Shown one piece after another: positions 14,680 to 49,004 of a DNA stretch of 64,000 nucleotides (positions are counted from its first letter, which is position 1; each line of letters opens with the position of its first letter). Made by a program: the position numbers and the translations under genes. The notes beneath the pieces are model-generated. The model worked only from the letters and a program-made list of their open reading frames with translations. It did not search any database and was not told the DNA's origin. The DNA is from a virus (Duplodnaviria; Caudoviricetes), in IMG/VR virus record IMGVR_UViG_3300043395_002393, positions 459 to 64,458 of that record; one strand, written 5' to 3'.

Positions 14680-15165
14680 ATGAAAATTGACGAAACCAAG
14701 TTGGCCGCCCTGCACGATTACCTCGTCGCCGGCGGATCGCCCGAGCAAGTGGATGTCGCCCAGCAGATCGGCGCCGACCCCGACGACACCGAGCAGGTGG
14801 ACGCCTACGTCGAGGCGCTGAAAGCCCGTTGGCCGGAAACCTACGGCGACCCGGAAACCCCGGCCGCACCGGCTCAACCCGCTCGGAAAACGGCCAAGAA
14901 GGCGGCGAAAACCGCCACTCCGGCCAGCACCTACCGCCTCCGCCGCGCCGACGGCACAGTGGTCGCGCTGGAGGTCTTGAAGGTCTCCGACAATGGAACC
15001 GTGATCTTGGAGGAGCCCCGTCAAAAGGACCTCGTGACCCTGCTCCTCCGCGGACGCCAGATCACCGTGGATCTGATCGAACTCCGTGCCAAGCCCGCCG
15101 GCTCGATGCTCCACGATCTGCCGGTGACCAAGGTCATCGAGTTGGCTGAACTCGCCAAGGCGTGA
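14680..15165 (+). CDS. Hypothetical protein, 161 aa
   Basis: ATG after AAACACACC leader; GTGA overlap with terL. Confidence 0.75.
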   Translation: MKIDETKLAALHDYLVAGGSPEQVDVAQQIGADPDDTEQVDAYVEALKARWPETYGDPETPAAPAQPARKTAKKAAKTATPASTYRLRRADGTVVALEVLKVSDNGTVILEEPRQKDLVTLLLRGRQITVDLIELRAKPAGSMLHDLPVTKVIELAELAKA

Positions 15166-17216
15166 TCGACGACGCTCCAAGGTCGGACCCGTTCAGTGGG
15201 ATCGTGCTCAACCATGATCTCTTGGACTGGTCCGACCCGACGTTGGATGCCGACGCGGTCACGATGCGGTTGCTCGACTTTCACGACTACTACGACGAGC
15301 CCGAGTATGGTGGCCCGGAGCCGGCGGACGCCACGCCGCAGGAGCTTGCGAAACACCGCATCGCGATCGAGAAGAAGATCCTGTTCGACGCCAAGCGGCC
15401 GAACTGGGGTGGCACGAGCAAGTGGGGCAAGCCCTACTTCCGGCACATGCTCTCCCTCATCAAGCTGGCGTTCCCGGACACCGACATCACGCCGTCCTTG
15501 GCCGACGCGGTCATGCTCTTCTGCATGGGCATCGGCGGCGGAAACAAGAAGCTGGAGCACCTGATCGGCAGCCAGAACTCCGGGAAGTCCGCCGGCGCGA
15601 TCCGCATCGCCTTCGCGATCATGATCGTCGATCCCGAGTACTCGGCGGTTTTCGTCGCCAACCCGTTCGACAACGCCGCCGACTCCACGGTCTGGGGCGA
15701 CGTGGAGGAGCTGTGGGACCAGCTCTGCGAGCACCACCCGAACGACACCGGCAAAGGCTACGAGGACGCGACGTGGCTGTTCCCCTGGGGCAAGAAGTAC
15801 GCCAACCGGCAGCTCGACCTCGTCCCGGGCCTCCCGAAGGCCGGCACGATCGTCCTGCGGAACGTGAAGCACGTCGGCAAGTTCAAGGGGTCGAAAGGTC
15901 GCGGTAAGGACGTGACCCGCGGCGTCATGCTGCTGCTGGTGGACGAGGTCAACGAAATCGAGAATCCCTCGTTCGAGACGATGCTCAACAACCTGGTATC
16001 TCAGGACCAGTTCTTCGCCATCACCTCCCAGAACTTCAAGGACGAGGAGGACATGGGCGGGCGGCTCACTCAACCGGTCGGGCTTTTCGGCGGCCCGTCT
16101 TCTTTCGACGACCTCGACATCGAGGAGGACGTGTGGTGGCACAGCTCGAAGTCCTCGATCACTCTCCGCTTCGATGGCCATCGCAGTCCGAACGTGCTGG
16201 CCCGCCGCACCATCTACCCGAAGCTCTTCAAGATGGAGAACCTCCAGCGGATGCGGGACGATTACGGCGAGCAGTCGCCGGACTACTTCTCGCAAGTCCG
16301 CTCGTTCCCTGTCCGCGGTGACGAGACGAACTCGGTGCTCTCTCGGGCTAAGCTGAGTGCGTCCCGGCACAAAGACACCTTCTTCACCGTCACAAAGTCC
16401 ATCGCTCGGGTGGGATTCTGCGACCCGGCGTTCGGCGGACGGGACAAGGCGGTCTTCGGTTGGATGGAGATCGCCCAAGCCTACATCACCGACGGCGAAG
16501 GGAACCAAGAGCTTCAGGAACTTGTGATTTTCCGTGATCACTTCCGGTCGCTCAAGCTGGTAAAAGGGGCGTGGTTCCCTGGGGATGACAACTATTGGCC
16601 GGATCGGATGAAAGCCTGCGGCATGGACATTTCCGACTACACCGCCGGCGCCGAGATCAGCTACGAGGACCAGATCGCCATCCAGTGCCGCGAGCTGTGC
16701 CTCGCCAACGGTATCCCTTTCGCCAACTTCGGCTACGACTTCTCGATGCGGCCGGACATCGTCAGCTCCATCAACAAGGTGATGGGGTTCAACAGCCTTG
16801 CCTTCGACTACAACCAGGGACCGGAGGGTCACACGATTCAGAACATCAAGAAGAACTCGACCGACTGCTGCAAAAACCGCTGCACCGAGCTGGCGTTCCT
16901 TGCCGCCGACCTGTTCCTCACCCGGCAGGTCCGCGGTGGCAGTTTCATCGAGACGGCTACCACCCAGCTCGCCCGAACCCTCTACACGACGGTCAACCGC
17001 AAGTACGTCGCCGAAGGAAAGCGCGAATACAAGGCCCGATGGCAACAGGTCTCTCCCGATCATCGGGACGTTTTGATGGGCCTGACCGGGGTCGCCTTGA
17101 AGCGCGGATTCCGTCAGAGCGTCGTGGGGCAGAAGTCGGCCGGCGGCGGCCGAAGCGTGTGGGACGAAATTACGTCTCGCGGTCTCGGGAAAAAACGGGT
17201 AGTGAAGCGCGTCTGA
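15162..17216 (+). CDS. terL: Terminase large subunit
   Basis: Walker A GSQNSGKS, Walker B LLVDE, RNaseH-like FCDPAFGGRD and SPDHRD; lies ahead of the portal. Confidence 0.88.
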   Translation: MIDDAPRSDPFSGIVLNHDLLDWSDPTLDADAVTMRLLDFHDYYDEPEYGGPEPADATPQELAKHRIAIEKKILFDAKRPNWGGTSKWGKPYFRHMLSLIKLAFPDTDITPSLADAVMLFCMGIGGGNKKLEHLIGSQNSGKSAGAIRIAFAIMIVDPEYSAVFVANPFDNAADSTVWGDVEELWDQLCEHHPNDTGKGYEDATWLFPWGKKYANRQLDLVPGLPKAGTIVLRNVKHVGKFKGSKGRGKDVTRGVMLLLVDEVNEIENPSFETMLNNLVSQDQFFAITSQNFKDEEDMGGRLTQPVGLFGGPSSFDDLDIEEDVWWHSSKSSITLRFDGHRSPNVLARRTIYPKLFKMENLQRMRDDYGEQSPDYFSQVRSFPVRGDETNSVLSRAKLSASRHKDTFFTVTKSIARVGFCDPAFGGRDKAVFGWMEIAQAYITDGEGNQELQELVIFRDHFRSLKLVKGAWFPGDDNYWPDRMKACGMDISDYTAGAEISYEDQIAIQCRELCLANGIPFANFGYDFSMRPDIVSSINKVMGFNSLAFDYNQGPEGHTIQNIKKNSTDCCKNRCTELAFLAADLFLTRQVRGGSFIETATTQLARTLYTTVNRKYVAEGKREYKARWQQVSPDHRDVLMGLTGVALKRGFRQSVVGQKSAGGGRSVWDEITSRGLGKKRVVKRV

Positions 17217-17218
17217 CC

Positions 17219-17956
17219 ATGCCTTGTGACACCTGCAACAGCTCCGGGGCCGCCGCGAAACCCGCGGCGGCGATGATCTATTCCGCAACCGCGTCGAGCG
17301 TGGTCGGGCGCGACGGTGTTCGCCACTCGATCGCCAAACCCCTCATCCCGGCCGGGCGAAAGCCAACCGGCGGCTGGAAAGTCAACCTGCTGGTGAACGG
17401 GCAGTCGATCGAAGCTGATGGACCCACCGGTGAAGCAGTGCACGCGGAGGCCGTCCGGCTCCTGCAACTCAACGGGATCACCTACTCGGACTTGGACCTG
17501 TGGCTCAATCTCAACCTCCAGTGGGTCCGCCGCGCCGTCGAGAAGTATCAGGTCGTCCGCGAGAGCGATCTCATGACCGCCGCGTCGGGCTCCGCCGTGG
17601 CTCCCGAGCACGCGCCCACCCGCGCCCGGCCACAGGTGGGACCGGCGGTGTGGGGCCGCAAGGGCTGGGGGATGCTCCAGATGTACTTGGCCTTGGACAC
17701 CTACGAGTTCGGCACCCTCCTCATGCTCGCCACCGAGCTTCGCAAGTGGCTCGACCCGAACGTCAACCCGACCACCGGTTGCGCGGAGTGCTTCATTCAC
17801 TTCGGCGCGGCGCTTGCGGATCTCCGCAACCGGCCGCGCTACACCCAGGCCGAGGCCCGCGAGTGGCTCTGGCGGGTGATGAACGGCGCCAACTCCCGGA
17901 AGGGGGTTCCCGAGATGACCTTCGAACAAGCAGCCCTCGCCAACCACTGGACATGA
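17219..17956 (+). CDS. Erv1/Alr-family sulfhydryl oxidase-like protein with N-terminal CxxC, 245 aa
   Basis: WGRKGWGMLQMY, GCAECFIHF and EWLWRVMNGANSRKGVP match the Erv pattern WGxxxWxxLH / CxxC / WxxxxHNxVN; N-terminal MPCDTC. Confidence 0.72.
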   Translation: MPCDTCNSSGAAAKPAAAMIYSATASSVVGRDGVRHSIAKPLIPAGRKPTGGWKVNLLVNGQSIEADGPTGEAVHAEAVRLLQLNGITYSDLDLWLNLNLQWVRRAVEKYQVVRESDLMTAASGSAVAPEHAPTRARPQVGPAVWGRKGWGMLQMYLALDTYEFGTLLMLATELRKWLDPNVNPTTGCAECFIHFGAALADLRNRPRYTQAEAREWLWRVMNGANSRKGVPEMTFEQAALANHWT

Positions 17957-20247
17957 AATTCCAATCCCAATACTTCGAGACGGCGGACGATCTGGTCCGT
18001 GCCAAGGACGACGCCTGGGAAGGTGTCAAGACGCGGCGTGAGCGGCTCGACATCATCCGCAAGTTCACGAACATGCAGCGGTTGATGACCGATGAGGAGG
18101 CCGAAAAGCTCGGCCGCACGGAGATCACCAACTTCGGGCTCTCGCACCGCGACATGCTCCAGATCGAGTCGCAGATCACCTCCATGGTCACCACGACCAA
18201 CGGGCTCGTCGAGGTGATCGTGGACACCGACAACGCCGAGAAGGACTACCAGACGAGCCTGCGGATCTCGGAAGCGATCAACCGCGGGGCGGTTCATTTC
18301 AAAGGGAAGTTCGCGAACCTGTGGCGCAAGGTCGCCGGTGAAATTACGATCGCCGGGGGCACTCCGGTGACCAACAACCCGCGCTTCGGTTGGCTCCCGG
18401 AGATCCGTGCCGATATGTTTTTTCCGAAGGCGACGCCGCTCGATGCCGAGCAGGTATCCTATGCCTTCGATCCTCGCGAGCTTTCAATTCACGACCTCAA
18501 GCACATGCTGGCGGCGATCGGTGATGGTCAGAGCCGCTACATCGTGAAGGAGAGCGTCGAGCACCTCATCAAGGTGTTGGAGGAGCAGGTGAAGGACAAC
18601 CGAAAGGACGAGGGAAGCTCGCACGGGTTCGGGGTCACCGAAGCGGTTCGCGACGGCAAATCCGAGCGGGCCACGACCATCTCGGCGTGGGATTACTTCG
18701 AGGTCAAATACGACGACAAGGGGAACCAATACGTCAGCCGCACCCTCTTCACCGACGGAATCAACGGGACCGCGACAACCGAGAAAGGTGATCGCGGCGA
18801 TGACAAACGCAGCTCCGCGGCCCGCATCATCGACTACGTCGAGAAAGCCTATCCAAGCGCCACGGACTGGCTGCACATGGTATTCGTGGACTCCGAGATC
18901 GGGGGTGTGAAGACCATCGACACCTGCCGCGGCATCGCCGAGCTGATCTACCCGTCGGCTCTGGAGCTGGAGGATCTCATCAACCTGACGCTCGAAGGGG
19001 ACAAGATCCGAGCCAAGCCGAAGATGCAGCTCACCGCGGAGGCGAACATCGACGACGTGGCGAAGTGGAACATCGTCGAGGACATGTATGCTCCAGCCGG
19101 CGTCTCCGAGCTGGAGTTCCGGTCGAACTCGCAGGGGCTCATGACTCCTTTCTCTCTGCTTCGGCAGAATGCCGCGGGGCTTGCGACCTCGTCGGTCGCA
19201 AACTCCGGTCGGGGCGGGGAGCTGCGCCAGCAAGCTCTGGAGCGCCAAGAGAACTCGGCCCAGCTCATCGGGAACCGGCTCGCGGAAGGCTACAACCACT
19301 TGGAGTCGATCTTGGAGACGCTCGTCTGGAGGCTACTCGCCGGCGACGTGAAGCCGGGCACCGACGGCTACCACGAGACGATGTGGGTCCGAGCCTACCT
19401 GGATCGCTACGACATCCCCTACAAGGACCTCGCCAAGCGCGAGCACAACCGGTTCCAGTACATCCGGGTCCGGGCCAAGCGGGTCATCGGCAACGGTGAC
19501 GCGCAGCAGCGGATGGATACGGCGGATTGGCTCATGAGCAACATCATGAACTACGCCCCGGCCACCCGTCCGCTGGTGGTGCAGCAGGCTACCGCGCTGC
19601 GGACACAGGACCCCGACCTCGCCGAGTATCTGGTCAAGGTGCCACAGGCGATTCTCAACGCCCAGAAGATCACCGCGGAGAACGAGTTCTCCACCATCGA
19701 GCGCCGCGCCGCGCTGGGGCAGGTCATCCCGATCGCCCCGGACGACGTTCACCAGGACCACATTCCGGTCCACCTTATCGACATGCAAGCCATGGTCGCG
19801 ATGGCCCAGATGCGCCCTTGGGACAAGCTGGACGTGCTCCAGTTCGCAGGGCTGGCCGAGCACACCGGCGAGCACCTCCAAGTGCTCATGGGCAATCCGC
19901 TGACCAACCCGGAGGCCAAGGCGTTCTTGAAGGACTACCAGAACATCGTCGCCTCCGCGCAGTCCATCGTGCAGGAGGTCGAGGAGCGCCTCGGCTCCGA
20001 ACAGGGGCAGCTCACCGCTCGCGAGCAGGCCGAGGTCGAGCTGAGGGTGGCCGAGCTTCAACTCAAGGCTCAGGCACTCGGACTCAAGATCGAAGACACC
20101 CGCAAGCTCTGGGAGAATCGCGAGGCCCGAGCCCGCCTCTCCCAGCGCAGCCAGTACGCTCGCGAAGTCGGTGATGCCCAGCGGCTCCAGCTTGACAACA
20201 AGCGGATCGAGACGCAGGCTCAATCCAGACAATCCGCGCAACAGTGA
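17953..20247 (+). CDS. Portal protein, 764 aa
   Basis: Size, position after terL, C-terminal helical barrel-like Q/E-rich coiled coil; start MKFQSQ at 17953. Confidence 0.75.
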   Translation: MKFQSQYFETADDLVRAKDDAWEGVKTRRERLDIIRKFTNMQRLMTDEEAEKLGRTEITNFGLSHRDMLQIESQITSMVTTTNGLVEVIVDTDNAEKDYQTSLRISEAINRGAVHFKGKFANLWRKVAGEITIAGGTPVTNNPRFGWLPEIRADMFFPKATPLDAEQVSYAFDPRELSIHDLKHMLAAIGDGQSRYIVKESVEHLIKVLEEQVKDNRKDEGSSHGFGVTEAVRDGKSERATTISAWDYFEVKYDDKGNQYVSRTLFTDGINGTATTEKGDRGDDKRSSAARIIDYVEKAYPSATDWLHMVFVDSEIGGVKTIDTCRGIAELIYPSALELEDLINLTLEGDKIRAKPKMQLTAEANIDDVAKWNIVEDMYAPAGVSELEFRSNSQGLMTPFSLLRQNAAGLATSSVANSGRGGELRQQALERQENSAQLIGNRLAEGYNHLESILETLVWRLLAGDVKPGTDGYHETMWVRAYLDRYDIPYKDLAKREHNRFQYIRVRAKRVIGNGDAQQRMDTADWLMSNIMNYAPATRPLVVQQATALRTQDPDLAEYLVKVPQAILNAQKITAENEFSTIERRAALGQVIPIAPDDVHQDHIPVHLIDMQAMVAMAQMRPWDKLDVLQFAGLAEHTGEHLQVLMGNPLTNPEAKAFLKDYQNIVASAQSIVQEVEERLGSEQGQLTAREQAEVELRVAELQLKAQALGLKIEDTRKLWENREARARLSQRSQYAREVGDAQRLQLDNKRIETQAQSRQSAQQ

Positions 20248-20526: not shown

Positions 20527-21888
20527 ATGCCACCCATCGACAACATCGAGCCGCAGCACGAAGACCGTCACAACCGGAACATGGCCGCCCTTTTCGGCGA
20601 CGACGCTCCGCCCCAGGACCCGCCGCAGGACGAGCCGGGTGACGACGCTCCGCCCCAGGACCCGCCGCAGGACGAGCCGGGTGACGACGCTCCGCCCCAG
20701 GACCCGCCGCAGGACGACCCCGAGGAGACTCCCGCGGACGATGTCGAGGAGGACTACGACGCCCCTGCGTCCAAGAAGGACAAGGCCGCCGAAGACGAGC
20801 CGGAGCCCGAGAACGAGACCGTCGCCCGCAAGATGGCGAAGGAGAACGGACGCCGCGCCAAACTCGCCGAGGCCAAGCTCCGCGAGCACGAGCTGGAGAT
20901 CGACCGGTTGAAATCCGAGCTGGAGGCCGAGAAAGCACGCCGCGAGGAGATCGAGGCGGTGCAGGTCGATCCTCGCGATTTCCCGGAGGTAAAGTCCCTG
21001 CGCGAGAAGGTGCTCAACGACGTGAAGCGGGGCGCCGCGCTTCTCGGTGTCCGGGACCCGAAGACCTTCCGCGACAACTTCGGCAGCTACATCACGAGCT
21101 TCATGGACGCGGACGCGCTCGACGGCGAGGAGTTCGATGCGGCGATCCTCAACCTCCGCAAGCAGATCATCAAGGATGTCGGCGGGTTCGAGGATGCGTA
21201 CGACGACCTCGATTTCACCGAGCAGGCCCGCGCCGACGCGATCGCCGACAAGGCGATGGCGGTCCTGGAGCGGGCGGTCCCCGACACCAAGAAGGCGATC
21301 GAACTCGCGGAAGGGCTGAAATCCCGCGCAAAAACCGGCCAGCTCATGGTGGGGACCCGCGAATACCAAGCTGCGGTGGCTGAATACCAACCGGTTCTCG
21401 ACGCCATCGGCGACCTGCCGGACGAAGTGATCGAAGCCGATCCGCACAGCATCCCGACCGTGGTCGCCCGAATGGTCAAGGAGTCGCCGGAGGCCCGCCG
21501 CCGCTTGGAGCGTGCCAAAGCCGACGTTCTGGAGATCATCGTCGGCCCGCGGGCGATCACCCAGGAGGAAGCCGAGAAGCTCCAAGCCAACGGCACCGAC
21601 CTCAAGACCTTCTACGCCGAGCGCCAGAAGCTCGTCGCCGAGAAGCGCAAGAAGCTCATCCCCCTGCTGGTTCAAGGGCTGGCCACCCGGTCGGTGTTCG
21701 CCGACGTGGTCAAGAAGCTCGCGAAGTACGAGGCGGCGAACGCCTCCGACGAGGAAGAGTTCGACGTGATGCGGCAGGTCCGCTCCCCCAAACCGGTGCC
21801 GAAGAAGAAGCCGGACCCCGTTCCGGCCGGCAAGCGCCGGAACTCGGTCCTGACCGAAATGTTCGGGGGCAACTACGACGAGCTGTGA
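20527..21888 (+). CDS. Putative capsid scaffolding protein, 453 aa
   Basis: Acidic low-complexity N-terminus, coiled coil, directly upstream of the capsid gene. Confidence 0.7.
   Translation: MPPIDNIEPQHEDRHNRNMAALFGDDAPPQDPPQDEPGDDAPPQDPPQDEPGDDAPPQDPPQDDPEETPADDVEEDYDAPASKKDKAAEDEPEPENETVARKMAKENGRRAKLAEAKLREHELEIDRLKSELEAEKARREEIEAVQVDPRDFPEVKSLREKVLNDVKRGAALLGVRDPKTFRDNFGSYITSFMDADALDGEEFDAAILNLRKQIIKDVGGFEDAYDDLDFTEQARADAIADKAMAVLERAVPDTKKAIELAEGLKSRAKTGQLMVGTREYQAAVAEYQPVLDAIGDLPDEVIEADPHSIPTVVARMVKESPEARRRLERAKADVLEIIVGPRAITQEEAEKLQANGTDLKTFYAERQKLVAEKRKKLIPLLVQGLATRSVFADVVKKLAKYEAANASDEEEFDVMRQVRSPKPVPKKKPDPVPAGKRRNSVLTEMFGGNYDEL
20599..20717 (+). repeat. 42-bp tandem repeat x~2.8 (DDAPPQDPPQDEPG)
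   Basis: Identical units at 20599 and 20641, partial unit at 20683. Confidence 0.95.
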
Positions 21889-22099: not shown

Positions 22100-23914
22100 A
22101 TGCCCTCTTGCAATCCTGACAAAATCAAGTCCGCCCTCTTCGAGGAAGCCGACATCGTGACGGACATCGTCCGCGAGAAGATCGTGAAATCCGATCGCAT
22201 GGCCCTCCGCATGATCCCCGATGGCGGGGTCGTCGAGCGCCACGACAACAACGACACCATCATCTACGGTGAAGGTCGTCAGGCGTCCCGTGCCTACAAG
22301 CAGCTCGACCACTCGGTCAAGGCGCTGGTTGGCGGTGAGATGCGCGGTCGCAAGGAGAACGGCGCGTCCGGTCTCTTCACCGCCGACATCAACGACATCG
22401 CCGACAACGCCTGCCACGGGCAGTGCGAGATCGACTTCGCCCAAGGCTTCCGCCGCCGCGGCACGGTCGATTACGGTCTGGATGTCACCACTCCGATCAA
22501 GTGCGCTCGCGAACTCGATCGCCTCGGCAAGGAGCACATCCGCGGCTACTTCACCGGGTTCAGGAACCAGTTCTCCATGTGGGGTCTGGACAATTTCAGC
22601 GACAACCTGCTGAACCTCGTCATCCAGAACTCGGAGTCGAACGCTTCGGTGCTCGGCGCCAACCAGTTCAACGTCACCGCCGGCGGATGGCAGGCGCCCC
22701 CGGTCTACCGCATCTCCATCCACTTCCTCCAGGACTACAAGGACCACATCAAGGCCGAAATGAAGGGCCGCGGCATGGAGGTCGGCGAGAACTGGAAGCT
22801 CACCGTCGAGATGCCGATGGACGACTGGTTGGACGCCGTCAAGGCCGACCAGATCGCCCGCAACCCCACCGGCACCAGCTACAACACCGAAGTCTTCAAG
22901 GACGAAGAAGGCCCGATGCGCGGCCGTCAGTTCGCGGACTACGGCGGTATCCGGTGCTACTTCACCGATGAACCGATCCGCGGCTACTTCGTGCAGACCG
23001 CCATCGCGTCCGGCAACCCCGTCTACAACTTCGTCCGGGTCTACCCCTGGATCAACAAGCAGGACGAGGAAGGCGGCATCGTGACCGGTGTGAACCACCA
23101 GTATCGTCAGGACCAGATCACCGTCGATGGGGTCACCTACGACATGTGCACCCTCCTGCCGCACATCGACCCGCGCTCCTTCAAGCGTTACGGCTTGATG
23201 AAGCCGCTCAAGCCGATCGGTGGTGCCAACGAAGGCGTCAACTACCAGGTCAAGGTCATCGACGGCCCCCACCTCGGTTGCAACGACTTCAACGACAAGT
23301 TCAAGCTCGTCGCTCGCCACGAGTTCCGGTTCAAGTCGATCTACCCGGAATTCTCCGGCTTCATCGCCTATCGTCACGGTCGCCGTCAGGGCTACACCAT
23401 CGCGGTCACCCCGCGGGAATACGTGGCCGGCCCGGACACCCCGGCGAACCCCGAGCGTTTCGACGCTTGCCACGACGACACCGGTTGCCAGACCGCCGAG
23501 TGCGCTCAGTGTGGCAAGGTCCCGGGCGACGAAGGCGCTTGCGTCGAGCCCAGCTCGACCTCTGCGGTCCTCAACTTGGAGCCCTGCGGCAGCATCGACG
23601 CGGTGTTCCTCGGTGATGCGTTCAACATCGTCCTGCGGGTCACCCGCACCGGCGACACGAGCGCGGCCGCGCAGGTCAACTGGACCTCCGCGCACGTCAC
23701 CACCAACGACTCCGACTTCCTCGACACCACGGGGGTCCTGTCGTGGGCCGCGGGCGACGACAGCCCGAAGGAAATCACGATCCCGATCCTTGGCACCTTC
23801 TCGGAGGCTGTCTCTGGAACCGCGGATCAGTTCACGGTCACCATCAGCTCGCCGGTCGGGGACACCCTCGGCACCTGCACGGTGGCTACCGTCAACGTCA
23901 GCGACCTGTCCTGA
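22100..23914 (+). CDS. Major capsid protein with Cys-rich linker and C-terminal Calx-beta (Ig-like) domain, 604 aa
   Basis: Position after scaffold, strong codon bias, terminator downstream; VTRTGDTSAAAQVNW..DF..TGVLSWAAGD..KEITIPI..FTVTIS is Calx-beta-like. Confidence 0.75.
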   Translation: MPSCNPDKIKSALFEEADIVTDIVREKIVKSDRMALRMIPDGGVVERHDNNDTIIYGEGRQASRAYKQLDHSVKALVGGEMRGRKENGASGLFTADINDIADNACHGQCEIDFAQGFRRRGTVDYGLDVTTPIKCARELDRLGKEHIRGYFTGFRNQFSMWGLDNFSDNLLNLVIQNSESNASVLGANQFNVTAGGWQAPPVYRISIHFLQDYKDHIKAEMKGRGMEVGENWKLTVEMPMDDWLDAVKADQIARNPTGTSYNTEVFKDEEGPMRGRQFADYGGIRCYFTDEPIRGYFVQTAIASGNPVYNFVRVYPWINKQDEEGGIVTGVNHQYRQDQITVDGVTYDMCTLLPHIDPRSFKRYGLMKPLKPIGGANEGVNYQVKVIDGPHLGCNDFNDKFKLVARHEFRFKSIYPEFSGFIAYRHGRRQGYTIAVTPREYVAGPDTPANPERFDACHDDTGCQTAECAQCGKVPGDEGACVEPSSTSAVLNLEPCGSIDAVFLGDAFNIVLRVTRTGDTSAAAQVNWTSAHVTTNDSDFLDTTGVLSWAAGDDSPKEITIPILGTFSEAVSGTADQFTVTISSPVGDTLGTCTVATVNVSDLS

Positions 23915-25670: not shown

Positions 25671-26531
25671 ATGAGCTGCAACTGCACCACGCCCGCCTCG
25701 GTGGCTCCGGTCAACCCGGAGCTACCGACCCTCTCCGCGCTGTCGCAAGCCTGCACGGACACCGTCGCCTGCGCGACCGACGAGTGCCTTGGTACGACTC
25801 CGGCGAGCGTCACCGGCAGCCCGGTGTCCCGCTGCGCCGATGCGAACGCGCTGCGGTCGTCCGCGAGCTGCGGCTACACCCTTCCGAACGGCTTCACCGA
25901 CGCGATCGCCGATCGCAACACCGAGGGGGTCACGCTCCTCGGTCGCATCGGCGCGAAGTTGGCGAAGCTGACCGGGTCCGGTTTCATCAAGATCGTCGAA
26001 GGCAAGGCGTTCATCGTTTCGTCAGTGCCGATCAAGATCGCCACGCTCTGGCACCAGTGGTGGAAGCCGGCGGGCATCAACGCCCGTCCGGTGCTCGGCG
26101 ACCCGCTGCCGTTTCATCACGCCGTCGTCGCTGATTCCGAAGGAAACCTCCATGGGATCAAAGGCGGCACGGAAGACGCGAGCCACGTCTGGAACGGCGA
26201 GCTTGGTCAGTGGGAAACCCGTGCGGAGGCCGATCGGACGCTCTGCAAGCGAGGGCACCTCGAACGGGCTGCGTCGCTGGAGCTGGTCGGTTTGGAAGCG
26301 ATCGCCGTGACGGGAACGGGCGCTGAGGTTCGCAATTTCAAGACCCTCGCGGGCTCCGGCATGATCGTGGTGGAGCAGACCCCGACCACGGCGTCGAGCT
26401 GTGACTGCCCAGGATGCGAGCCGGTTCCCGCGGTGTCCAGCGTCGCCAGGTTCGTTCCGTTCCCCACCGGCGACGGCACTTGGACCTTGAAGTGGGACGC
26501 CGAAAATGGTCCTCATTGGGTCGAAGACTGA
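25671..26531 (+). CDS. Cys-rich structural protein, 286 aa
   Basis: MSCNC..., CDCPGC; 11 Cys counted; structural operon. Confidence 0.7.
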   Translation: MSCNCTTPASVAPVNPELPTLSALSQACTDTVACATDECLGTTPASVTGSPVSRCADANALRSSASCGYTLPNGFTDAIADRNTEGVTLLGRIGAKLAKLTGSGFIKIVEGKAFIVSSVPIKIATLWHQWWKPAGINARPVLGDPLPFHHAVVADSEGNLHGIKGGTEDASHVWNGELGQWETRAEADRTLCKRGHLERAASLELVGLEAIAVTGTGAEVRNFKTLAGSGMIVVEQTPTTASSCDCPGCEPVPAVSSVARFVPFPTGDGTWTLKWDAENGPHWVED

Positions 26532-27652: not shown

Positions 27653-28381
27653 ATGATCGACCTGCGAAATTTCTTCGGCCGAGCCTACGTTCTCAATCTC
27701 GACATCCGACCCGACCGCTGGGTTCAGTTCCAAGAGAGAGCTGCGGCAGCCGGCATCACCGGCTTTGAGCGGTATCGAGCCATCGAAGGAGACAAGTGCC
27801 CGCACCCGGCGTGGTGGCGTGCCGGCAACGGGGCCTGGGGCTGCTTGATGAGCCACCTTCGAGTGGCGCAGGACGCCCTCATGGACGGACTACCGAGCTA
27901 CCTCGTGTTCGAGGACGACGCGGTGTTCGCGCCGGACTTCGCCGATCGCCTGCCGGAAATCATGGAGCGCCTCGACGGGGTCGAGTGGGACCAACTCTAC
28001 CTCGGCGGCCAACACCTCTGGGTCGAGGCTGGCCCTCCGTGGCCATTCCGCAAGGGTCTCGTGAGCTGCCGAAACGTGAACCGCACCCACGCCTTCGCGG
28101 TCAACGCGAGGTTCATGGTGAAGTTCTCGCAACACATCATGCACGCCCCGGACTACATCGCCGCGCACGTACCGCCGGTGGAGCCGGACGCCGGCGGGTC
28201 CGGTGCGGTCCAAGAGTGGTTCCCGCACATCGACCACCAACTCGGGAGGCTGCACGAGACGCGGCAGTTCAAGATCCTCGCCGCGAACCCGTGGCTTTGT
28301 GGGCAGGCGGCCAGCAGCTCCAACATCACGGGAACCGTGAAGGACGAGGAGTGGTGGAACTCAACTGGATGGGGGGAATAG
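27653..28381 (+). CDS. Glycosyltransferase, GT25-like
   Basis: YVLNLDIRPDRW, RAIEG, GAWGCLMSH, VFEDD, LYLGG, THAFAVN motifs. Confidence 0.85.
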   Translation: MIDLRNFFGRAYVLNLDIRPDRWVQFQERAAAAGITGFERYRAIEGDKCPHPAWWRAGNGAWGCLMSHLRVAQDALMDGLPSYLVFEDDAVFAPDFADRLPEIMERLDGVEWDQLYLGGQHLWVEAGPPWPFRKGLVSCRNVNRTHAFAVNARFMVKFSQHIMHAPDYIAAHVPPVEPDAGGSGAVQEWFPHIDHQLGRLHETRQFKILAANPWLCGQAASSSNITGTVKDEEWWNSTGWGE

Positions 28382-29668
28382 ATGCACACGAGCGTGATTG
28401 ATTTTCTGAAACGGGTGCTCACGAAGGAGCGTGTCGGCGGGGCTCGGGTTCTCGAAGTCGGGGCGTTCAACGTCAACGGCAGCCCTCGCGACTTGGTTGA
28501 AGAACTCAGTCCTCGCATCTACGTCGGAGTGGATATGGCTCCGCAGCCTCGGTTTGTTGATCTGGTCCTGAATGCGGAGAACCTGACGGCGCACTTTGGG
28601 TTGGCAGCCTTCGACGTGGTGATCTGCACCGAGATGATGGAGCACGTCGAGAACTGGAAATCCGTCTCGGACGAGTTGAAGAACGTGCTGGCTCCAGGAG
28701 GGCTGCTCATCGTGACCACGCGTTCCGAAGGGTTTCCTGTTCACGGCTACCCGTCGGATCATTGGAGGTACACCACCGAGGATCTAGGAGCGATGTTCGG
28801 GGAGTTTCGCCCGATCTACCTCGGAGACGATCCCGATCCGTTGTCTCCTGGGGTGTTTTTTGCAGGGGTGAAGCCTCCTGAAGCGCCCCTGAAACTGGCG
28901 AACCCCACGACTGTTGAGGTGCCCTATCACTGCGATCTAGCGTTTCACGAGCGGTTGAGACTCCGGCAAACCGATCCGAAGGAGGTCAGCCCTTTGCGCA
29001 CCTTCTACCACGTCGCGTGCATGGGGTCTTGGCGGCAGGTGTTCCGCGATCAAGTCGCTATTCTCGGCGACCTCGGCCTGCAACCGGAATGCCATGTTCT
29101 CGGCACTTCGGAGGATTTTGCCGAGGTCGTCGCGCAGTTCCCGGACGCGGTTCATCACGGTCAAAACTTCACCCTCTACGAAACGCCGACGCTCGAAGCG
29201 GCCCACAGATGGGCGATTGAGAACCCAACGGGCGCCGTTCTCTACCTGCACACCAAGGGGGTGAGCCAGCCCCAAGACGAGGGCAAGCAGGCGTGGAGGA
29301 TTCTCATGGAGGAGGCGCTGTTGCGGGATTGGGTGGGGGCTCTCCGCAGCTTGAGCCACTACGACATGGTGGGGCTGAACTGGATGGCCAATCAAGATTT
29401 CCCCCACTACTGCGGCAATTTCTGGATGGCTCGGAACGATTGGCTCGCCTCGCTGCCGTCACCACAGGATTACCGGGCAGCCGGTGGACCTTGGATTGCC
29501 GGAAACCCGTGGGAGCGGATGCACGCGGAGATGTGGCTGGGGTCGCGACCGTGGCATCACATGAGGTCGCTCCGGTTCCAAGGCGAAAGACTTTGGGAGC
29601 GTGATCGCGCTACGGAACTCTTGGACCCGGTCGGAAAAGAGAGATTCGAGAAGTTCATCCGAAGCTGA
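28382..29668 (+). CDS. SAM-dependent methyltransferase fused to an uncharacterised 'YLHTKG/GNFW' glycan-related domain
   Basis: VLEVG, VGVDM, FDVVICTEMMEH, HGYPSDHWR; second half YETPTL, YLHTKG, HYCGNFWMA, AEMWLG. Confidence 0.8.
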   Translation: MHTSVIDFLKRVLTKERVGGARVLEVGAFNVNGSPRDLVEELSPRIYVGVDMAPQPRFVDLVLNAENLTAHFGLAAFDVVICTEMMEHVENWKSVSDELKNVLAPGGLLIVTTRSEGFPVHGYPSDHWRYTTEDLGAMFGEFRPIYLGDDPDPLSPGVFFAGVKPPEAPLKLANPTTVEVPYHCDLAFHERLRLRQTDPKEVSPLRTFYHVACMGSWRQVFRDQVAILGDLGLQPECHVLGTSEDFAEVVAQFPDAVHHGQNFTLYETPTLEAAHRWAIENPTGAVLYLHTKGVSQPQDEGKQAWRILMEEALLRDWVGALRSLSHYDMVGLNWMANQDFPHYCGNFWMARNDWLASLPSPQDYRAAGGPWIAGNPWERMHAEMWLGSRPWHHMRSLRFQGERLWERDRATELLDPVGKERFEKFIRS

Positions 29669-47277: not shown

Positions 47278-48729
47278 TCAAGCGGCGATTTTCTGAAGTG
47301 CCCGAAGCGCGTTGAGAAGACCGGTCTGGGTGTCGCTCTTGTCGCGCAGTGCCGCGGCCACGGCGTCGTCGATCGAGCCTGGTACGATGATCCGGTAGAT
47401 CAGCGTCTCGTAGCTCTGACCGGTGCGGACGATGCGGGCGTTGGTCTGGATGTAGGTCTCGTTGGAGTAGGTGAGGGTCATCCACACCGCGATGCGGCAG
47501 GACTGCTGGAGTCCATCGAGCCCGTGCGAGAGCGACCGCGCATCGCAGACCCAAGTGTGGATCTCGCCGCGCTGCCAAGCAGGCAGGTCCTTCTCGTCGA
47601 ACACCCGCGATCCGGGGATCGCTTCCAGCACTCGGGCCGACTCGTGCTTGTAGGCGCAGAGCACGAGGATCGGTTCTTTGCCGTGCTTCTTGCGCAGCTT
47701 CTTGAGCGCCTCGATCTTCGCGTCGTGGACATGGTAGACGCCCTTGAACTCGTCGTAGACCGCGCCGCCGGTGATCTGGAGCAGCTTGCCGGCCAGCGTC
47801 GCGGCGTTGAGCGCCACCACGTCGGACTTCTCCAGCTCGATGAGCAGCTCCTTCTCCATCTTCTTGTACTGCGCGACGGCGGCCGACGGGAGCTTCACCT
47901 CCACGTCGATACTCTCGCAGGTCGGCACGTCGAGCCAGTCGTCACCGAGCATGGTCAGCGCGAGGTCCGCGAGCTTCGCGTCGATCTTCTCCTTCGCCCC
48001 AGGGCGCAGACCGAACTGGTAGCCCATGTAATCGGTCTGCTGGAAGTAGGTCCGCTTGTAGTGGTGGAAGCTGCGGCCGAGGCGTTCGCCGTCATCGAGC
48101 AGGCGGATCTGACCCCACAGGTCGAGGTAGCTGTTCGGCACCGGGGTTCCGGTGAGGCCGATGCGGTATTGGAACCGGTCGAGCCAGGGCCATAGCGAGC
48201 GGAACCTCTTCGAGTTGGCGTCCTTGGCGAGGCTGAGTTCGTCGATCACCAGCGTGTCAACGTGCGAGCTGCGGGTGCCCTTGAACATCTTGTCCACGGC
48301 ACCGGTCGAGACGCTCGGGACATAGCCTCCGTCGCACTCCTCGCAGTCGAGGCACTCGATCGGGTCGTTCTTGCAGACGCGGCACTTGATCCGGCGGGCG
48401 ATGGTCGGGAGCTGCTCGGGGTTGATGAGGGCCACGTCGAAGTCGCCGCGCTTCCACAGCTTCCAGCCTTCCGCCGTGCGGAGGTGGGCGATCTTCATCC
48501 ACTTCGACAGGTTCCATCGGGCGATCTGGGTGGGCCAAGTGATGGTGGTCACCCGGAGCGGAGAGATGATGAGCGCGGCGCGGGACTCGCCGGACGCGAT
48601 GCGCTCGGCAATGGTGTCGAGGGTCACCACGGTCTTGCCGAGCCCTGGACTGCAAAAAAGGGCCGAGCGGTCCCGGCTTTTCAGCCAGTCGAGCATCGGC
48701 GGTTGGTGCGGCAGCGGGGTGAAGTTCAC
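47278..48729 (-). CDS. SNF2-family helicase with Cys-rich insertion
   Basis: PGLGKT, VIDELS, LTGTP, HGLDGLQ, QTNARIVRTGQ; GTG start inferred from the GTGA overlap. Confidence 0.9.
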   Translation of the reverse strand: MNFTPLPHQPPMLDWLKSRDRSALFCSPGLGKTVVTLDTIAERIASGESRAALIISPLRVTTITWPTQIARWNLSKWMKIAHLRTAEGWKLWKRGDFDVALINPEQLPTIARRIKCRVCKNDPIECLDCEECDGGYVPSVSTGAVDKMFKGTRSSHVDTLVIDELSLAKDANSKRFRSLWPWLDRFQYRIGLTGTPVPNSYLDLWGQIRLLDDGERLGRSFHHYKRTYFQQTDYMGYQFGLRPGAKEKIDAKLADLALTMLGDDWLDVPTCESIDVEVKLPSAAVAQYKKMEKELLIELEKSDVVALNAATLAGKLLQITGGAVYDEFKGVYHVHDAKIEALKKLRKKHGKEPILVLCAYKHESARVLEAIPGSRVFDEKDLPAWQRGEIHTWVCDARSLSHGLDGLQQSCRIAVWMTLTYSNETYIQTNARIVRTGQSYETLIYRIIVPGSIDDAVAAALRDKSDTQTGLLNALRALQKIAA

Positions 48730-49004
48730 GGGATCAGTTGGTTGAGAATCCACTGGGACGCTTGCTTCGGCGAGTCGGTCCAGTCGGCGAACATGCCCTT
48801 CTCGCGGAGCTTTTTGATGTTGCGGAGCTGGAGTTCGGTCGGTTTTTCACCAGTTGCCTTCAGCTCGATGAAGATCGCCTTGCCGTCCTTGAAGAACAGG
48901 CGATCCGGTTTGCCCCGGTCGTTGGGACCTGCTAGCTTGTAGGTGCCGACGCCGACGCCGGCGGCGAACAGGCACACGGCGGCTTCAACGTCGCGCTCTT
49001 TCAT
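48726..49004 (-). CDS. VRR-NUC domain nuclease
   Basis: MKERDVE..GKPDRLF..FIELKATGEKPTELQ. Confidence 0.88.
   Translation of the reverse strand: MKERDVEAAVCLFAAGVGVGTYKLAGPNDRGKPDRLFFKDGKAIFIELKATGEKPTELQLRNIKKLREKGMFADWTDSPKQASQWILNQLIP

What the first reader, a model, noticed from the sequence alone, without database searches (positions are those of the whole stretch)
17219..17956. Erv1/Alr-like sulfhydryl oxidase between terL and portal: a phage-encoded cytoplasmic disulfide pathway for a Cys-rich virion?
Seen: the C-terminal ~100 aa (17651-17953) reads WGRKGWGMLQMY...GCAECFIHF...EWLWRVMNGANSRKGVPEMTFEQA, and the N-terminus carries a second CxxC (MPCDTC). The gene starts 2 nt after terL and overlaps the portal start. 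Established: Erv1/Alr FAD-linked oxidases have WGxxxWxxLH / CxxC / WxxxxHNxVN; Erv1 uses a distal shuttle CxxC; poxvirus E10 and ASFV pB119L use this fold to make virion disulfides in the reducing cytoplasm. Inference: a tailed bacteriophage doing the same would be an NCLDV-like morphogenesis strategy. Caveat: both conserved His are replaced (LQ, MN), so FAD binding may be altered or lost.
Basis: partly seen in the sequence, partly recalled or inferred. Interest (0 to 1): 0.88.

Follow-up and report, generated by a model that had tools for sequence, protein, structure and literature searches.

The report
Phage-encoded Erv-type disulfide-forming enzyme
An uncultivated bacteriophage carries, among its head-assembly genes, a divergent relative of the Erv/ALR disulfide-forming enzymes of eukaryotes and their giant viruses, and two cysteine pairs in a neighbouring virion protein are present only in related phages whose copy still looks catalytic.

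Summary
ORF 17219-17956 encodes 245 aa, starts 2 nt after the upstream ORF and overlaps the next one by ATGA. All quoted motifs are present.

Residues 143-245 are a true but divergent Erv/ALR domain. A 135-member family profile hits only Erv oxidases in the PDB (20 of 20; ASFV pB119L E 4.5e-9). The six best fold matches are all Erv.

The family has 182 representatives, all from uncultivated phages as far as seen. It splits into a canonical HNxVN+CxxC clade, an MNxxN+CxxC clade that holds the window, and forms whose CxxC and flavin motif decayed together or whose Erv domain is absent. In the window's clade the Erv domain is under strong constraint (dN/dS about 0.04).

New evidence for a target: in the neighbouring 604-aa virion protein, C109/C457 and C496/C593 behave as covarying pairs. 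At least one pair occurs in 8 of 8 phages with a catalytic-looking Erv domain and in 0 of 8 without one.

Flavin binding and activity remain untested. The N-terminal CxxC persists without the Erv domain. The terL, portal and capsid labels are inferred.

The parts
17219..17956 (+). Gene for the 245-aa two-domain protein (P0001)
   Evidence: ORF and translation. GC3 is 0.85. 25 homologues and 182 representatives.
17225..17236 (+). N-terminal CxxC (C3, C6) on a low-confidence arm (residues 1-15)
   Evidence: Codons checked. pLDDT is below 50 for residues 1-15. C at position 3 in 70 of the 72 family members that have a residue there. The motif is also kept in 14 of 18 members without the Erv CxxC and in 23 of 30 N-domain-only proteins.
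17276..17593 (+). N-terminal domain (about residues 20-125): four short strands plus three helices, with no known family
   Evidence: AF2 block pLDDT 83-93. P49, G52, W53, N85, W95, N99 and W102 are at least 90% conserved over 135 members. No Pfam, PHROG or NCBIfam hit and no Atlas lead.
17645..17953 (+). Erv/ALR-like domain (residues 143-245): four-helix bundle plus a short fifth helix
   Evidence: Helices 151-158, 164-178, 189-204, 210-228 and 235-241. VIA Z 8.9 to 3gwl over residues 143-245. Profile hit to 3gwl at E 4.5e-9. dN/dS 0.037-0.053 against L002-L005.
17654..17680 (+). Helix-1 motif G146-R147-x-x-W150-x-x-L153-Q154 (canonical GRxxWxxLH, with His replaced by Gln)
   Evidence: HMM alignment to pB119L, AtErv1 and ALR. 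G146 and W150 are kept in 95-100% of CxxC-bearing members but in 13% and 46% of CxxC-less ones.
17780..17791 (+). Putative active-site C188-A-E-C191, at the N-terminus of helix 3
   Evidence: Codons checked. Aligned to the CxxC of Erv structures. Both Cys are present in 96 of 135 family members and in 24 of 25 close homologues.
17879..17893 (+). M221-N-G-A-N225, in place of the canonical HNxVN flavin-binding motif
   Evidence: Position 221 is M in 50 and H in 49 of 135 members. M occurs with CxxC in 46 members.
15162..17216 (+). Upstream 684-aa ORF, terminase-large-subunit-like. Label inferred from motifs and gene order only.
   Evidence: Invariant G136/K142 (GSQNSGKS), D261-E262 and D421-P-A-F-G-G-x-D428 across 11 loci. 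No hit in Pfam, PHROGs, NCBIfam, the PDB or the phage records. Two homologues carry intein domains.
17953..20247 (+). Downstream 764-aa ORF, portal-like. Label inferred from size and position only.
   Evidence: Conserved directly downstream in all related loci. No library hit.
20527..21888 (+). 453-aa acidic, Cys-free ORF, scaffold-like by position
   Evidence: 0 Cys. 42-nt tandem repeat at 20599-20717. No family hit.
22100..23914 (+). 604-aa Cys-rich virion protein (putative major capsid protein), the candidate substrate. C109 is at 22424-22426, C457 at 23468-23470, C496 at 23585-23587 and C593 at 23876-23878.
   Evidence: 14 Cys. Pair statistics are, and the association with the Erv state. 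The capsid label is only a weak Atlas lead (scores 0.77-0.79) plus gene order.
23558..23911 (+). C-terminal Calx-beta (Ig-like) domain of the 604-aa protein, holding C496 and C593
   Evidence: Profile against the PDB: E 1.8e-8 to Na/Ca-exchanger CBD domains. VIA Z 13.9, rmsd 2.0, 110 residues aligned.
25671..26531 (+). 286-aa protein with 11 Cys (3.85%), a possible further substrate
   Evidence: Cys count. C28 and C249 are present in 7 of 7 loci with a catalytic-looking Erv domain and in 0 of 6 without. The alignment is gappy in this region.

Best explanation
The gene encodes a homodimeric, two-module thiol oxidase of the Erv/ALR family, carried by an uncultivated tailed phage.

Shown:
- Residues 143-245 are homologous to Erv/ALR domains and are predicted to adopt their fold.
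- The CxxC (C188/C191) sits at the start of helix 3.
- The domain is under strong purifying selection.
- The gene holds a fixed place in the head-morphogenesis gene block.

Inferred:
- The domain still binds a flavin. W150, G146, F195, N222, N225 and W244 are kept. M221 replaces the adenine- and Trp-stacking His, and the Lys of HNxVNxxLxK is lost.
- It uses the C188-C191 disulfide to oxidise dithiols and passes the electrons to O2 or another acceptor.
- It thereby writes specific disulfides into virion proteins while they fold and assemble in the reducing cytoplasm.
- The best candidate targets are C109-C457 and C496-C593 of the neighbouring 604-aa protein; C496-C593 lies inside its Calx-beta domain.
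- The phage-specific N-terminal module (residues ~20-125, with C3xxC6 on a flexible arm) most likely docks the enzyme on its target or carries the disulfide to it, as the Trx module does in QSOX or the N-arm in Erv1. That module must also have a role of its own.
For: Homology to Erv/ALR:
- The A2 profile (135 members) hits 20 of 20 Erv-family PDB sequences and nothing else: pB119L 4.5e-9, AtErv1 1.5e-7, ALR 1.4e-6.
- 85 of 135 members hit Pfam Evr1_Alr at E<=0.01.
- 8 of 9 HNxVN-clade members tested reach the gathering score, at 28.1-42.4 bits.

Fold:
- The AF2 model has pLDDT 79.9.
- All top 10 Foldseek PDB rows are Erv-family chains, with probability 0.72-0.99 but E only 0.075-0.18.
- The named top BFVD rows are giant-virus sulfhydryl oxidases.
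- The VIA top six are all Erv, at Z 8.9-7.5; the next row is Z 6.2.

Function retained in this lineage:
- dN/dS is 0.037-0.053 for residues 136-245 and 0.148-0.203 for residues 2-135, window against L002-L005.
- Across the family the CxxC and the flavin-proximal residues stand or fall together. G146 is kept in 95-98%, W150 in 98-100% and N222 in 95-100% of the CxxC-bearing groups, against 13%, 46% and 31% of the 39 CxxC-less members.

Dimer: predicted homodimer ipSAE 0.86 against a best control of 0.00, through helices 1-2, with partner pLDDT at least 80 and runs agreeing in at least 90% of contacts. In the calibration 20 of 30 solved homomers and 1 of 23 monomers reached the mark. The pass may stem from likeness to solved Erv dimers.

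Target:
- Among 122 homologues of the 604-aa protein, C109 and C457 occur together in 50, are both absent in 72 and never occur singly.
- C496 and C593 occur together in 24, C496 occurs alone in 1, and both are absent in 97.
- On a tree built with the Cys columns masked there are 3 Fitch changes for the first pair and 9 for the second.
- In the 16 loci that hold both genes, 8 of 8 with CxxC plus (H/M)NxxN have at least one pair, and 0 of 8 with a degenerate or absent Erv domain have any.
- L033 is a loss separate from the main clade.

Synteny: the order terL-like, this gene, portal-like is kept in all 19 related loci that have both flanks.
Against: Against flavin binding or membership:
- No flavin or activity was measured.
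- M221 replaces the His that PMC4721541 (passages read) calls invariable and places in the Trp95/adenine stack. Q154 replaces the helix-1 His. The Lys at position 230 (95% K in the HNxVN clade) is not kept in the window's clade.
- The protein itself scores below Pfam's gathering score (18.5 against 27.6 bits). Alone it finds no Erv chain in the PDB, and the 25-member profile finds AtErv1 only at E 1.1.
- The fold-search scores are modest for a helical bundle; the tool itself warns about Z under about 13.

Against an oxidase role as the gene's core function:
- 39 of 135 members lack the CxxC.
- In 4 loci the gene ends after the N-domain, so the conserved core of the gene is the N-domain.
- The N-terminal CxxC is kept without the Erv domain.

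Against the target assignment:
- Cys 4, 105, 135, 394, 468 and 471 of the 604-aa protein are kept in all 15 loci compared, and 286, 463 and 481 in 13-14 of them, whatever the Erv state. Other Cys-rich proteins persist in Erv-less phages.
- The association rests on only 2-3 independent loss events. The gene trees disagree on whether the main Erv-less group is one clade.
- The model of the 604-aa protein is poor (pLDDT 49.5), so no Cys-Cys distances could be checked.
- The host and its oxygen regime are unknown.
Confidence: 0.55

Rival explanations
1. The protein is a redox-inactive assembly or structural factor of the head-portal-terminase machinery. The N-domain carries the real function. The Erv-derived bundle serves only as a dimerisation or scaffold module that no longer binds flavin.
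For: - The N-domain is the part conserved family-wide.
- 39 of 135 members lack the CxxC.
- In L015, L016, L023 and L025 the gene encodes the N-domain alone and the portal-like gene follows directly.
- Both canonical His are replaced and the Lys at 230 is lost.
- The predicted dimer interface lies entirely in the Erv domain.
Against: - Within the window's clade the CxxC is invariant. G146, W150 and N222 are kept in 98-100% of members.
- The Erv half evolves about four times more slowly at non-synonymous sites than the N half.
- A mere dimerisation bundle would not need the CxxC and the isoalloxazine-proximal residues, and these would not decay together wherever the CxxC is lost.
- The Cys pairs in the 604-aa protein track the catalytic-looking state.
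Confidence: 0.17
2. The enzyme is an active thiol oxidase or oxidoreductase, but its targets are not the capsid Cys pairs. Candidates are other virion proteins such as the 286-aa Cys-rich protein, its own N-module partner, or host thiols (thioredoxin or glutathione pools, or a defence protein). Alternatively, the CxxC acts without flavin in thiol-disulfide exchange or metal binding.
For: - The Erv fold, the CxxC and the strong constraint are established.
- Several other neighbouring proteins are Cys-rich.
- In the 286-aa protein C28 and C249 also follow the Erv state (7 of 7 against 0 of 6).
- The flavin site is altered on its adenine side, which leaves room for a changed cofactor or chemistry.
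Against: - The gene lies inside the morphogenesis block, translationally coupled on both sides.
- Presence of the 604-aa Cys pairs agrees with the Erv state in all 16 loci.
- No host-takeover context was seen.
Confidence: 0.22
3. The resemblance is a chance motif in a generic four-helix bundle, or the ORF is not a real gene.
For: The single-sequence evidence is weak: Pfam E 0.0026, below the cut-off; no Erv hit with the protein alone against the PDB; Foldseek E values of 0.016-0.1.
Against: - The family profile hits only Erv chains, down to E 4.5e-9.
- Relatives pass Pfam's cut-off.
- The alignments match motif by motif: GRxxW, CxxC-xx-HF, W-x4-(H/M)NxxN, and the C-terminal W.
- The codon-position GC pattern and dN/dS show a coding gene under selection.
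Confidence: 0.02

Closest known systems
African swine fever virus pB119L (PDB 3gwl), a viral Erv-family FAD-linked sulfhydryl oxidase
   Same: It is the best sequence-profile hit (E 4.5e-9) and the best structural hit (VIA Z 8.9, rmsd 2.7, 92 residues aligned; Foldseek rank 1). Both have the four-helix Erv core with the CxxC at helix 3. Both are virus-encoded, with a proposed role in virion morphogenesis in a reducing cytoplasm; the role of pB119L is recalled from the literature cited in PMC3509050.
   Different: pB119L is a single-domain protein of about 119 aa from a virus of eukaryotes, and it keeps HNNVN (alignment). The phage protein has an extra ~140-aa N-terminal module with its own CxxC, has MNGAN, and has Gln in place of the helix-1 His.
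Yeast Erv1 and human ALR (mitochondrial disulfide relay)
   Same: The architecture matches: an N-terminal CxxC on a flexible arm plus a C-terminal Erv domain, forming a head-to-tail homodimer (PMC4721541, passages read). A dimer through helices 1-2 is predicted here. The equivalents of G91, R92, W95, C130, C133, F137 and W183 are present, as G146, R147, W150, C188, C191, F195 and W244.
   Different: The equivalents of His162, Lys171, Tyr128 and Arg182 are M221, V230, T186 and H243. There is no CX16C structural disulfide, since the protein has only 4 Cys. There is a folded N-domain of unknown family and no Mia40-type partner is known. Here the N-terminal CxxC persists in relatives that lack the Erv domain.
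QSOX (quiescin sulfhydryl oxidase)
   Same: One polypeptide joins a CxxC-bearing substrate-facing module to an Erv domain. QSOX Erv domains are among the profile hits (4p2l 6.3e-5, 3lli 1e-4).
   Different: The N-module here has no detectable relation to thioredoxin: there is no Pfam hit and the strand/helix order differs. Its fold was not searched on its own.
Poxvirus E10R-A2.5L-G4L and baculovirus Ac92/P33 cytoplasmic disulfide pathways
   Same: The concept is the same: a virus brings its own Erv-type oxidase to make virion disulfides in the cytoplasm. The pathway details are recalled; E10R and Ac92 are mentioned in PMC10598087, section 16, which was read.
   Different: Those are viruses of eukaryotes. 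Poxvirus E10R belongs to a separate Pfam family (PF04805, per PMC10598087) and works through a multi-protein relay. In the phage no separate relay proteins were identified.
Disulfide-stabilised phage particles without a phage oxidase (Qbeta capsid, phage Milano sheath, a siphovirus tail tube)
   Same: Phage virions cross-linked by disulfides are documented (PMC13576161, passages read).
   Different: In the passages read, no phage-encoded oxidase is invoked. Here a dedicated enzyme gene accompanies the Cys pairs.

Membership tests
Erv/ALR sulfhydryl oxidases (Pfam PF04777 Evr1_Alr) | Four-helix-bundle Erv fold with a short fifth helix | tested here: met
   The AF2 model has helices 151-158, 164-178, 189-204, 210-228 and 235-241. 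The VIA top six are all Erv structures, at Z 8.9-7.5 over residues 143-245. The Foldseek top 10 are all Erv-family chains. This rests on a predicted model and modest scores.
Erv/ALR sulfhydryl oxidases (Pfam PF04777 Evr1_Alr) | Active-site CxxC at the N-terminus of helix 3 | tested here: met
   C188-A-E-C191 aligns with the CxxC of pB119L, AtErv1 and ALR. It is present in 24 of 25 close homologues.
Erv/ALR sulfhydryl oxidases (Pfam PF04777 Evr1_Alr) | FAD bound next to the CxxC | not testable with these tools
   FAD rode along in the complex job but is not scored. Only residue conservation could be examined.
Erv/ALR sulfhydryl oxidases (Pfam PF04777 Evr1_Alr) | Conserved flavin-contact residues: GRxxW(x3)H in helix 1 and W-x4-HNxVNxxLxK in helix 4 (the residue list for Erv1 comes from PMC4721541) | tested here: not met
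   G146, R147, W150, N222, N225 and W244 are present. The two His are Q154 and M221, and the Lys position is V230. Relatives in the same family do keep HNVN and K (43 members).
Erv/ALR sulfhydryl oxidases (Pfam PF04777 Evr1_Alr) | Score at or above Pfam's gathering threshold (27.6 bits) | tested here: not met
   The window protein scores 18.5 bits. 8 of 9 HNxVN-clade relatives tested score 28.1-42.4 bits. P0018, from the window's own clade, scores 26.0.
Erv/ALR sulfhydryl oxidases (Pfam PF04777 Evr1_Alr) | Homodimer | tested here: met
   Prediction only: ipSAE 0.86 against a best control of 0.00. In the calibration 20 of 30 solved homomers and 1 of 23 monomers reached the mark. The pass may reflect likeness to solved Erv dimers.
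Erv/ALR sulfhydryl oxidases (Pfam PF04777 Evr1_Alr) | Distal shuttle disulfide that relays electrons to the active site (Erv1, ALR, Erv2) | tested here: inconclusive
   C3xxC6 lies on a low-confidence arm. But it is retained in members without the Erv CxxC (14 of 18) and in N-domain-only proteins (23 of 30).
Phage terminase large subunit (label of the upstream neighbour) | Recognised terminase ATPase and nuclease domains | tested here: inconclusive
   No hit in Pfam, PHROGs, NCBIfam, the PDB profile search or the phage records. Only Walker A/B-like and DPAFGGxD motifs are invariant. Two homologues carry inteins.
Calx-beta domain (C-terminus of the 604-aa candidate substrate) | Calx-beta sequence profile and Ig-like sandwich fold | tested here: met
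   E 1.8e-8 to NCX1/CALX CBD domains. VIA Z 13.9-12.9 to six Calx-beta structures. Precomputed PF03160 in many homologues.

The most novel reading that the evidence does not exclude
A large clade of uncultivated tailed phages runs its own cytoplasmic disulfide-writing system, a strategy so far described for giant viruses of eukaryotes. A single fused protein joins a docking or carrier module with CxxC to an Erv flavin oxidase that carries an unprecedented Met in place of the 'invariable' stacking His. The gene is translationally coupled between the terminase and portal genes. The enzyme installs two defined disulfides (C109-C457 and C496-C593) in the capsid protein before lysis. Enzyme and target cysteines are gained and lost as one evolutionary unit.
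Probability: 0.4. Interest if true: 0.88.

Novelty: new variant of a known kind. Interest (0 to 1): 0.78.

Why it matters
In the papers read here, Erv/ALR oxidases are treated as a hallmark of eukaryotes and their large DNA viruses, plus 'few bacterial groups' in database listings (PMC3509050 passages; PMC10598087 section 16). Five full-text searches found no report of a phage-encoded Erv oxidase. The 50,697 deposited phage genomes hold no relative of this protein.

If the protein is active, three things follow:
- Tailed phages can make structural disulfides inside a reducing bacterial cytoplasm instead of waiting for lysis.
- It gives a natural experiment on how far the Erv flavin site can drift (His to Met, Lys lost).
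- It offers a compact bacterial-context oxidase fused to a targeting module, of possible use for cytoplasmic disulfide formation in expression hosts.

The family's internal series runs from canonical, through Met-variant and degenerate, to domain deleted, with matching changes in a target protein. This makes the hypothesis directly testable.

Tried and rejected
Searches with the protein or its close relatives that found nothing useful:
- The single protein against PDB sequences gave only a histidine-triad protein at E 0.22.
- The 25-member profile A1 against the PDB gave three rows at E 0.5-1.1, with AtErv1 third. This was too weak and was superseded by the A2 profile.
- PHROGs and NCBIfam gave nothing for the protein.
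- An Atlas search with the N-domain (residues 1-130) gave no usable hit.

Neighbour identity:
- The terL-like and portal-like ORFs have no hits in Pfam, PHROGs or NCBIfam, in the phage records (terL-like only) or in PDB profile searches with A8 and A9.
- Their homologues are all unnamed.

The 604-aa protein:
- The AF2 model is poor (pLDDT 49.5).
- The BFVD and VIA searches matched only its Calx-beta end.
- Atlas scores of 0.77-0.79 to capsid clusters are leads only.

Widening the locus set:
- Alignments A2 and A4 were too diverse for the search for related loci.
- A6, covering an independent CxxC-loss lineage, found no locus.
- A7 added one new contig, L033. A8 added none.
- The genome-contig scan gave one real locus, L007, on a contig binned with a Saccharibacteria MAG and therefore not trusted for the host. 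It also gave one spurious 57-aa match, L008, which is not an ORF and was rejected.

Contig-length matching through the listing of cluster members yielded 1 usable pair from 10 proteins and was not pursued.

No host could be assigned. The window ends still carry phage genes, including a Mu Gam-like ORF.
Full report
**1. Observation**

The window is bases 459-64458 of a 64,458-base virus record, with an estimated completeness of 79%.

ORF 17219-17956 (+) gives a 245-aa protein without stops. The upstream 684-aa ORF stops at 17214-17216 and the ATG follows at 17219. The downstream 764-aa ORF starts at 17953 inside ATGA.

Both canonical His positions are indeed replaced, by Q154 and M221. GC at codon positions 1/2/3 is 0.64/0.51/0.85, as in the neighbouring genes.

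**2. Is the C-terminal part an Erv/ALR domain?**

Taken alone, the protein gives only weak signals:
- Pfam Evr1_Alr at E 0.0026, 18.5 bits against a gathering score of 27.6.
- No Erv chain when searched alone against PDB sequences.
- Nothing in PHROGs or NCBIfam.

The family settles the question.
- A word-indexed search found 25 relatives at 40-87% identity.
- An exhaustive profile search found 182 representatives at E<=0.001, of which 150 were listed.
- I aligned the 135 stored sequences of at least 195 aa as A2. I left out 38 shorter ones and the fragment P0025.
- The A2 profile hits 20 distinct PDB sequences at E<=10, and all 20 are Erv-family oxidases. The best are ASFV pB119L 4.5e-9, Arabidopsis Erv1 1.5e-7, human ALR 1.4e-6 and yeast Erv1 7e-6. 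QSOX1, Erv2 and mimivirus R596 follow.
- The alignments match motif by motif: WG..W..L, G-C-x-x-C-x-x-(H)F, A-R-x-W-x4-(H)N-x-V-N-x-R-L-G-K.
- 85 of 135 members hit Evr1_Alr at E<=0.01.
- 8 of 9 tested members of the canonical clade exceed the gathering score.

The AF2 model built from the 25-sequence alignment has mean pLDDT 79.9. It shows two confident domains, residues ~20-123 and 143-245, and floppy stretches at 1-15 and 125-134.
- Foldseek against the PDB gives no hit at E<=0.001. Its ten best rows are nevertheless all Erv-family chains (E 0.075-0.18, probability 0.72-0.99).
- Against BFVD, the named top rows are sulfhydryl oxidases of giant viruses (best E 0.016).
- The Foldseek-independent VIA search ranks six Erv structures first, at Z 8.9-7.5 over residues 143-245. 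The next row is Z 6.2. The tool warns that such Z values are unremarkable for helical bundles, so the fold evidence counts only together with the profile evidence.

I conclude that residues 143-245 are a divergent member of the Erv/ALR superfamily.

**3. Anatomy of the family**

Column counts on the 135 sequences define four groups:
- 43 members have CxxC plus HNxVN, the canonical form. K at position 230 is kept in 95% of them.
- 46 members have CxxC plus M-N-x-x-(N/R). This is the window's clade. H194 is kept in 89% and the Lys at 230 is not conserved.
- 7 members have CxxC with another residue at position 221.
- 39 members lack the CxxC.

In the CxxC-less group the flavin-proximal residues have decayed too. 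G146 stands at 13%, W150 at 46% and N222 at 31%, against 95-100% in both CxxC-bearing groups.

On a family tree, Met-221 marks one deep clade. CxxC loss occurs in one large clade and in several small ones. Only 3 members have His at position 154.

PMC4721541 (passages read) lists the FAD contacts of Erv1 as G91, R92, W95, Y128, C133, F137, C159, H162, V165, K171, F174, R182 and W183. It calls H162 invariable, stacked with W95 and the adenine. By the alignments:
- The window protein keeps the equivalents of G91, R92, W95, C133, F137 and W183.
- It has M, V, T and H at the equivalents of H162, K171, Y128 and R182.

The isoalloxazine side of the site is therefore conserved and the adenine side is remodelled.

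In the window's lineage the Erv half is under stronger constraint than the N half. dN/dS is 0.037-0.053 against 0.148-0.203 (window against L002-L005). This argues against a decaying domain.

A homodimer through helices 1 and 2 is predicted, with ipSAE 0.86 against a best control of 0.00. In the calibration 20 of 30 solved homomers and 1 of 23 monomers reached the mark. The runs agree in at least 90% of contacts and the partner pLDDT is at least 80. The pass may come from likeness to solved Erv dimers.

**4. The N-terminal module**

Residues ~20-125 form four short strands and three helices. This is the most widely conserved part of the protein: P49, G52, W53, N85, W95, N99 and W102 are at least 90% conserved. 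It has no match in any library tried.

The N-terminal CxxC is present in 70 of the 72 sequences that have a residue at position 3. It is also kept in 14 of 18 members of a CxxC-less clade and in 23 of 30 proteins that consist of the N-domain alone.

In loci L015, L016, L023 and L025 the gene really ends after about 125 codons and the portal-like gene follows. The N-module therefore has a role that does not need the Erv domain. A pure 'shuttle disulfide' reading is too simple.

**5. Context**

The window is phage-like throughout.
- A minus-strand replication block carries an SNF2 helicase, family-A polymerase, Enc34-type SSB, DUF2800/PD-(D/E)XK and PriCT-2/DUF5906 primase.
- A Mu Gam-like ORF lies near the end.
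- A long plus-strand block holds mostly unannotatable genes.

No library confirms the 'terL' and 'portal' labels. The upstream ORF has invariant Walker A/B-like and DPAFGGxD motifs, and two of its homologues carry inteins. The labels are reasonable but inferred.

The order is: small ORF, terL-like, this gene, portal-like, acidic Cys-free protein, 604-aa protein. It is kept in every related locus that has the flanks. There are 20 distinct contigs. 19 of them have the upstream gene, and L022 begins inside the gene. All 20 have the portal-like gene downstream.

No relative exists in 50,697 deposited phage genomes.

**6. A candidate substrate**

The 604-aa protein encoded at 22100-23914 has 14 Cys, or 2.3% against 1.0% over 38 ORFs. 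Its last ~118 residues are a Calx-beta domain (E 1.8e-8; Z 13.9). Its identity as the major capsid protein rests on gene order and weak Atlas leads. Its AF2 model is poor.

Comparing 15 loci:
- Cys 4, 105, 135, 394, 468 and 471 are kept in all 15, and Cys 286, 463 and 481 in 13-14 of them.
- In the 8 phages whose Erv domain looks catalytic, C109 is present in 8, C457 in 8, C496 in 7 and C593 in 6.
- In the 7 phages whose Erv domain is degenerate or absent, all four are absent.

Among the window protein, the best 120 of 148 homologues and L033, 122 sequences in all:
- C109 and C457 occur together in 50 and never singly.
- C496 and C593 occur together in 24, with a single exception (C496 alone).
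- On a tree built with the Cys columns masked, the two pairs change state 3 and 9 times.

That is the pattern expected of two disulfides. One of them would tie the first and last strands of the Calx-beta domain, but that geometry is inferred and was not measured.

A prediction followed: a pair-less lineage nested among pair-bearing ones should lack a catalytic Erv domain. It could be tested on one new contig, L033. Its homologue between the terL-like and portal-like genes matches the family HMM at E 2e-11, has no CxxC and reads FNDIN at the motif. Its 604-aa homologue lacks both pairs.

The tally is therefore 8 of 8 against 0 of 8. Five loci without the 604-aa region (L017-L020, L023), the re-fetched duplicates and the spurious L008 are not counted.

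That includes P0020 with a protein that keeps only C496/C593. One degenerate member sits with no pair. This matching is heuristic.

Caveats:
- L002-L005 are close kin, and L013 and L014 are near-identical.
- The independent events number two to three.
- The terL and 14-taxon capsid trees make the main Erv-less group paraphyletic. The portal tree (support 53) and the 122-taxon tree make it one clade.

**7. Mechanism proposed**

Shown: homology, fold, CxxC placement, constraint, synteny and covariation.

Inferred: a dimeric flavin-dependent oxidase whose C188-C191 disulfide is re-formed by the flavin and O2 or another acceptor. It oxidises Cys pairs in virion proteins, with C109-C457 and C496-C593 as first candidates. 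It does so during assembly in the cytoplasm, and the N-module provides docking or disulfide carriage.

I put the whole statement at 0.55. The homology alone is near certain, and activity is about 0.6. The rivals are:
- an inactive assembly factor, 0.17;
- an active enzyme with other targets or altered chemistry, 0.22;
- chance, 0.02.

**8. Comparison and novelty**

The closest known proteins are pB119L, Erv1/ALR and, in architecture, QSOX. The closest known strategy is the poxvirus, ASFV and baculovirus cytoplasmic disulfide pathway.

Membership in the Erv superfamily is supported by fold, CxxC and profile. Two defining sequence features are not met: the stacking His, and the Pfam threshold for this protein. 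FAD binding is untestable here.

PMC3509050 (passages read) defines Erv enzymes by fold, cofactor binding and active-site cysteines, and describes them as universal in eukaryotes and conserved in giant viruses. PMC10598087 (section 16 read) notes database occurrences in a few bacterial groups and 'some dsDNA viruses'.

Five full-text searches returned no report of a phage Erv oxidase. Subscription-only papers and supplements were not visible.

I rate the finding a new variant of a known kind, with interest 0.78.

Noticed in passing
window 36031-44877 (+): A 2948-aa ORF without a single Cys and without any Pfam hit at E<=0.001. It closes the plus-strand block. It might be an ejection, tape-measure or virion-polymerase-like giant protein.
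   Followed up: partly
window 22100-23914, residues 463-481 (23486-23542): C463-x4-C468-x2-C471-x9-C481 is a four-Cys cluster just before the Calx-beta domain. C468, C471 and C481 are present in 121 of 121 sequences and C463 in 89 of 121. The cluster is independent of the Erv state. It looks like a metal site rather than a pair of disulfides.
   Followed up: partly
window 17225-17236, 22109-22111, 25677-25685: Three proteins of the block carry conserved Cys within their first six residues: the Erv-like protein (MPCDTC), the 604-aa protein (C4, in 15 of 15 loci) and the 286-aa protein (C3 and C5, in 13 of 13 loci). This is unexplained.
   Followed up: no
window 20599-20717: A perfect 42-nt tandem repeat of 2.8 copies encodes DDAPPQDPPQDEPG units near the N-terminus of the acidic, Cys-free scaffold-like protein.
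   Followed up: partly
window 27653-28381 and 28382-29668: A glucosyltransferase-like ORF (PHROG 2835, E 5e-8) and a SAM methyltransferase-domain ORF (Pfam, E 8e-9) sit inside the structural gene block. They may point to modification of the virion or of the DNA.
   Followed up: no
P0367 and P0408 (homologues of window 15162-17216): Two terL-like homologues are about 1030 aa long and carry Hint/homing-endonuclease (intein) domains.
   Followed up: no
L015, L016, L023, L025: Related phages, with terL-like proteins 64-66% identical to the window's in the three loci that hold the full gene, encode only the N-domain (~125 aa) at this position. The Erv domain is cleanly absent.
   Followed up: yes
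L033 (whole locus): A relative with only 48% GC, against 63% for the window, keeps the same gene order. The phage clade therefore seems to span hosts of very different base composition.
   Followed up: no
window 47278-57455 (-) and 63130-63717 (-): The replication block (SNF2, PolA, Enc34-type SSB, DUF2800/PD-(D/E)XK, PriCT-2/DUF5906 primase) and a Mu Gam-like ORF show that the window is phage DNA up to its ends. No host flank was seen.
   Followed up: partly
L007 (contig of a MAG labelled Candidatus Saccharibacteria): A 16.6-kb contig carrying the whole head block is binned in a Saccharibacteria MAG. This is probably a phage contig and not evidence of the host.
   Followed up: no
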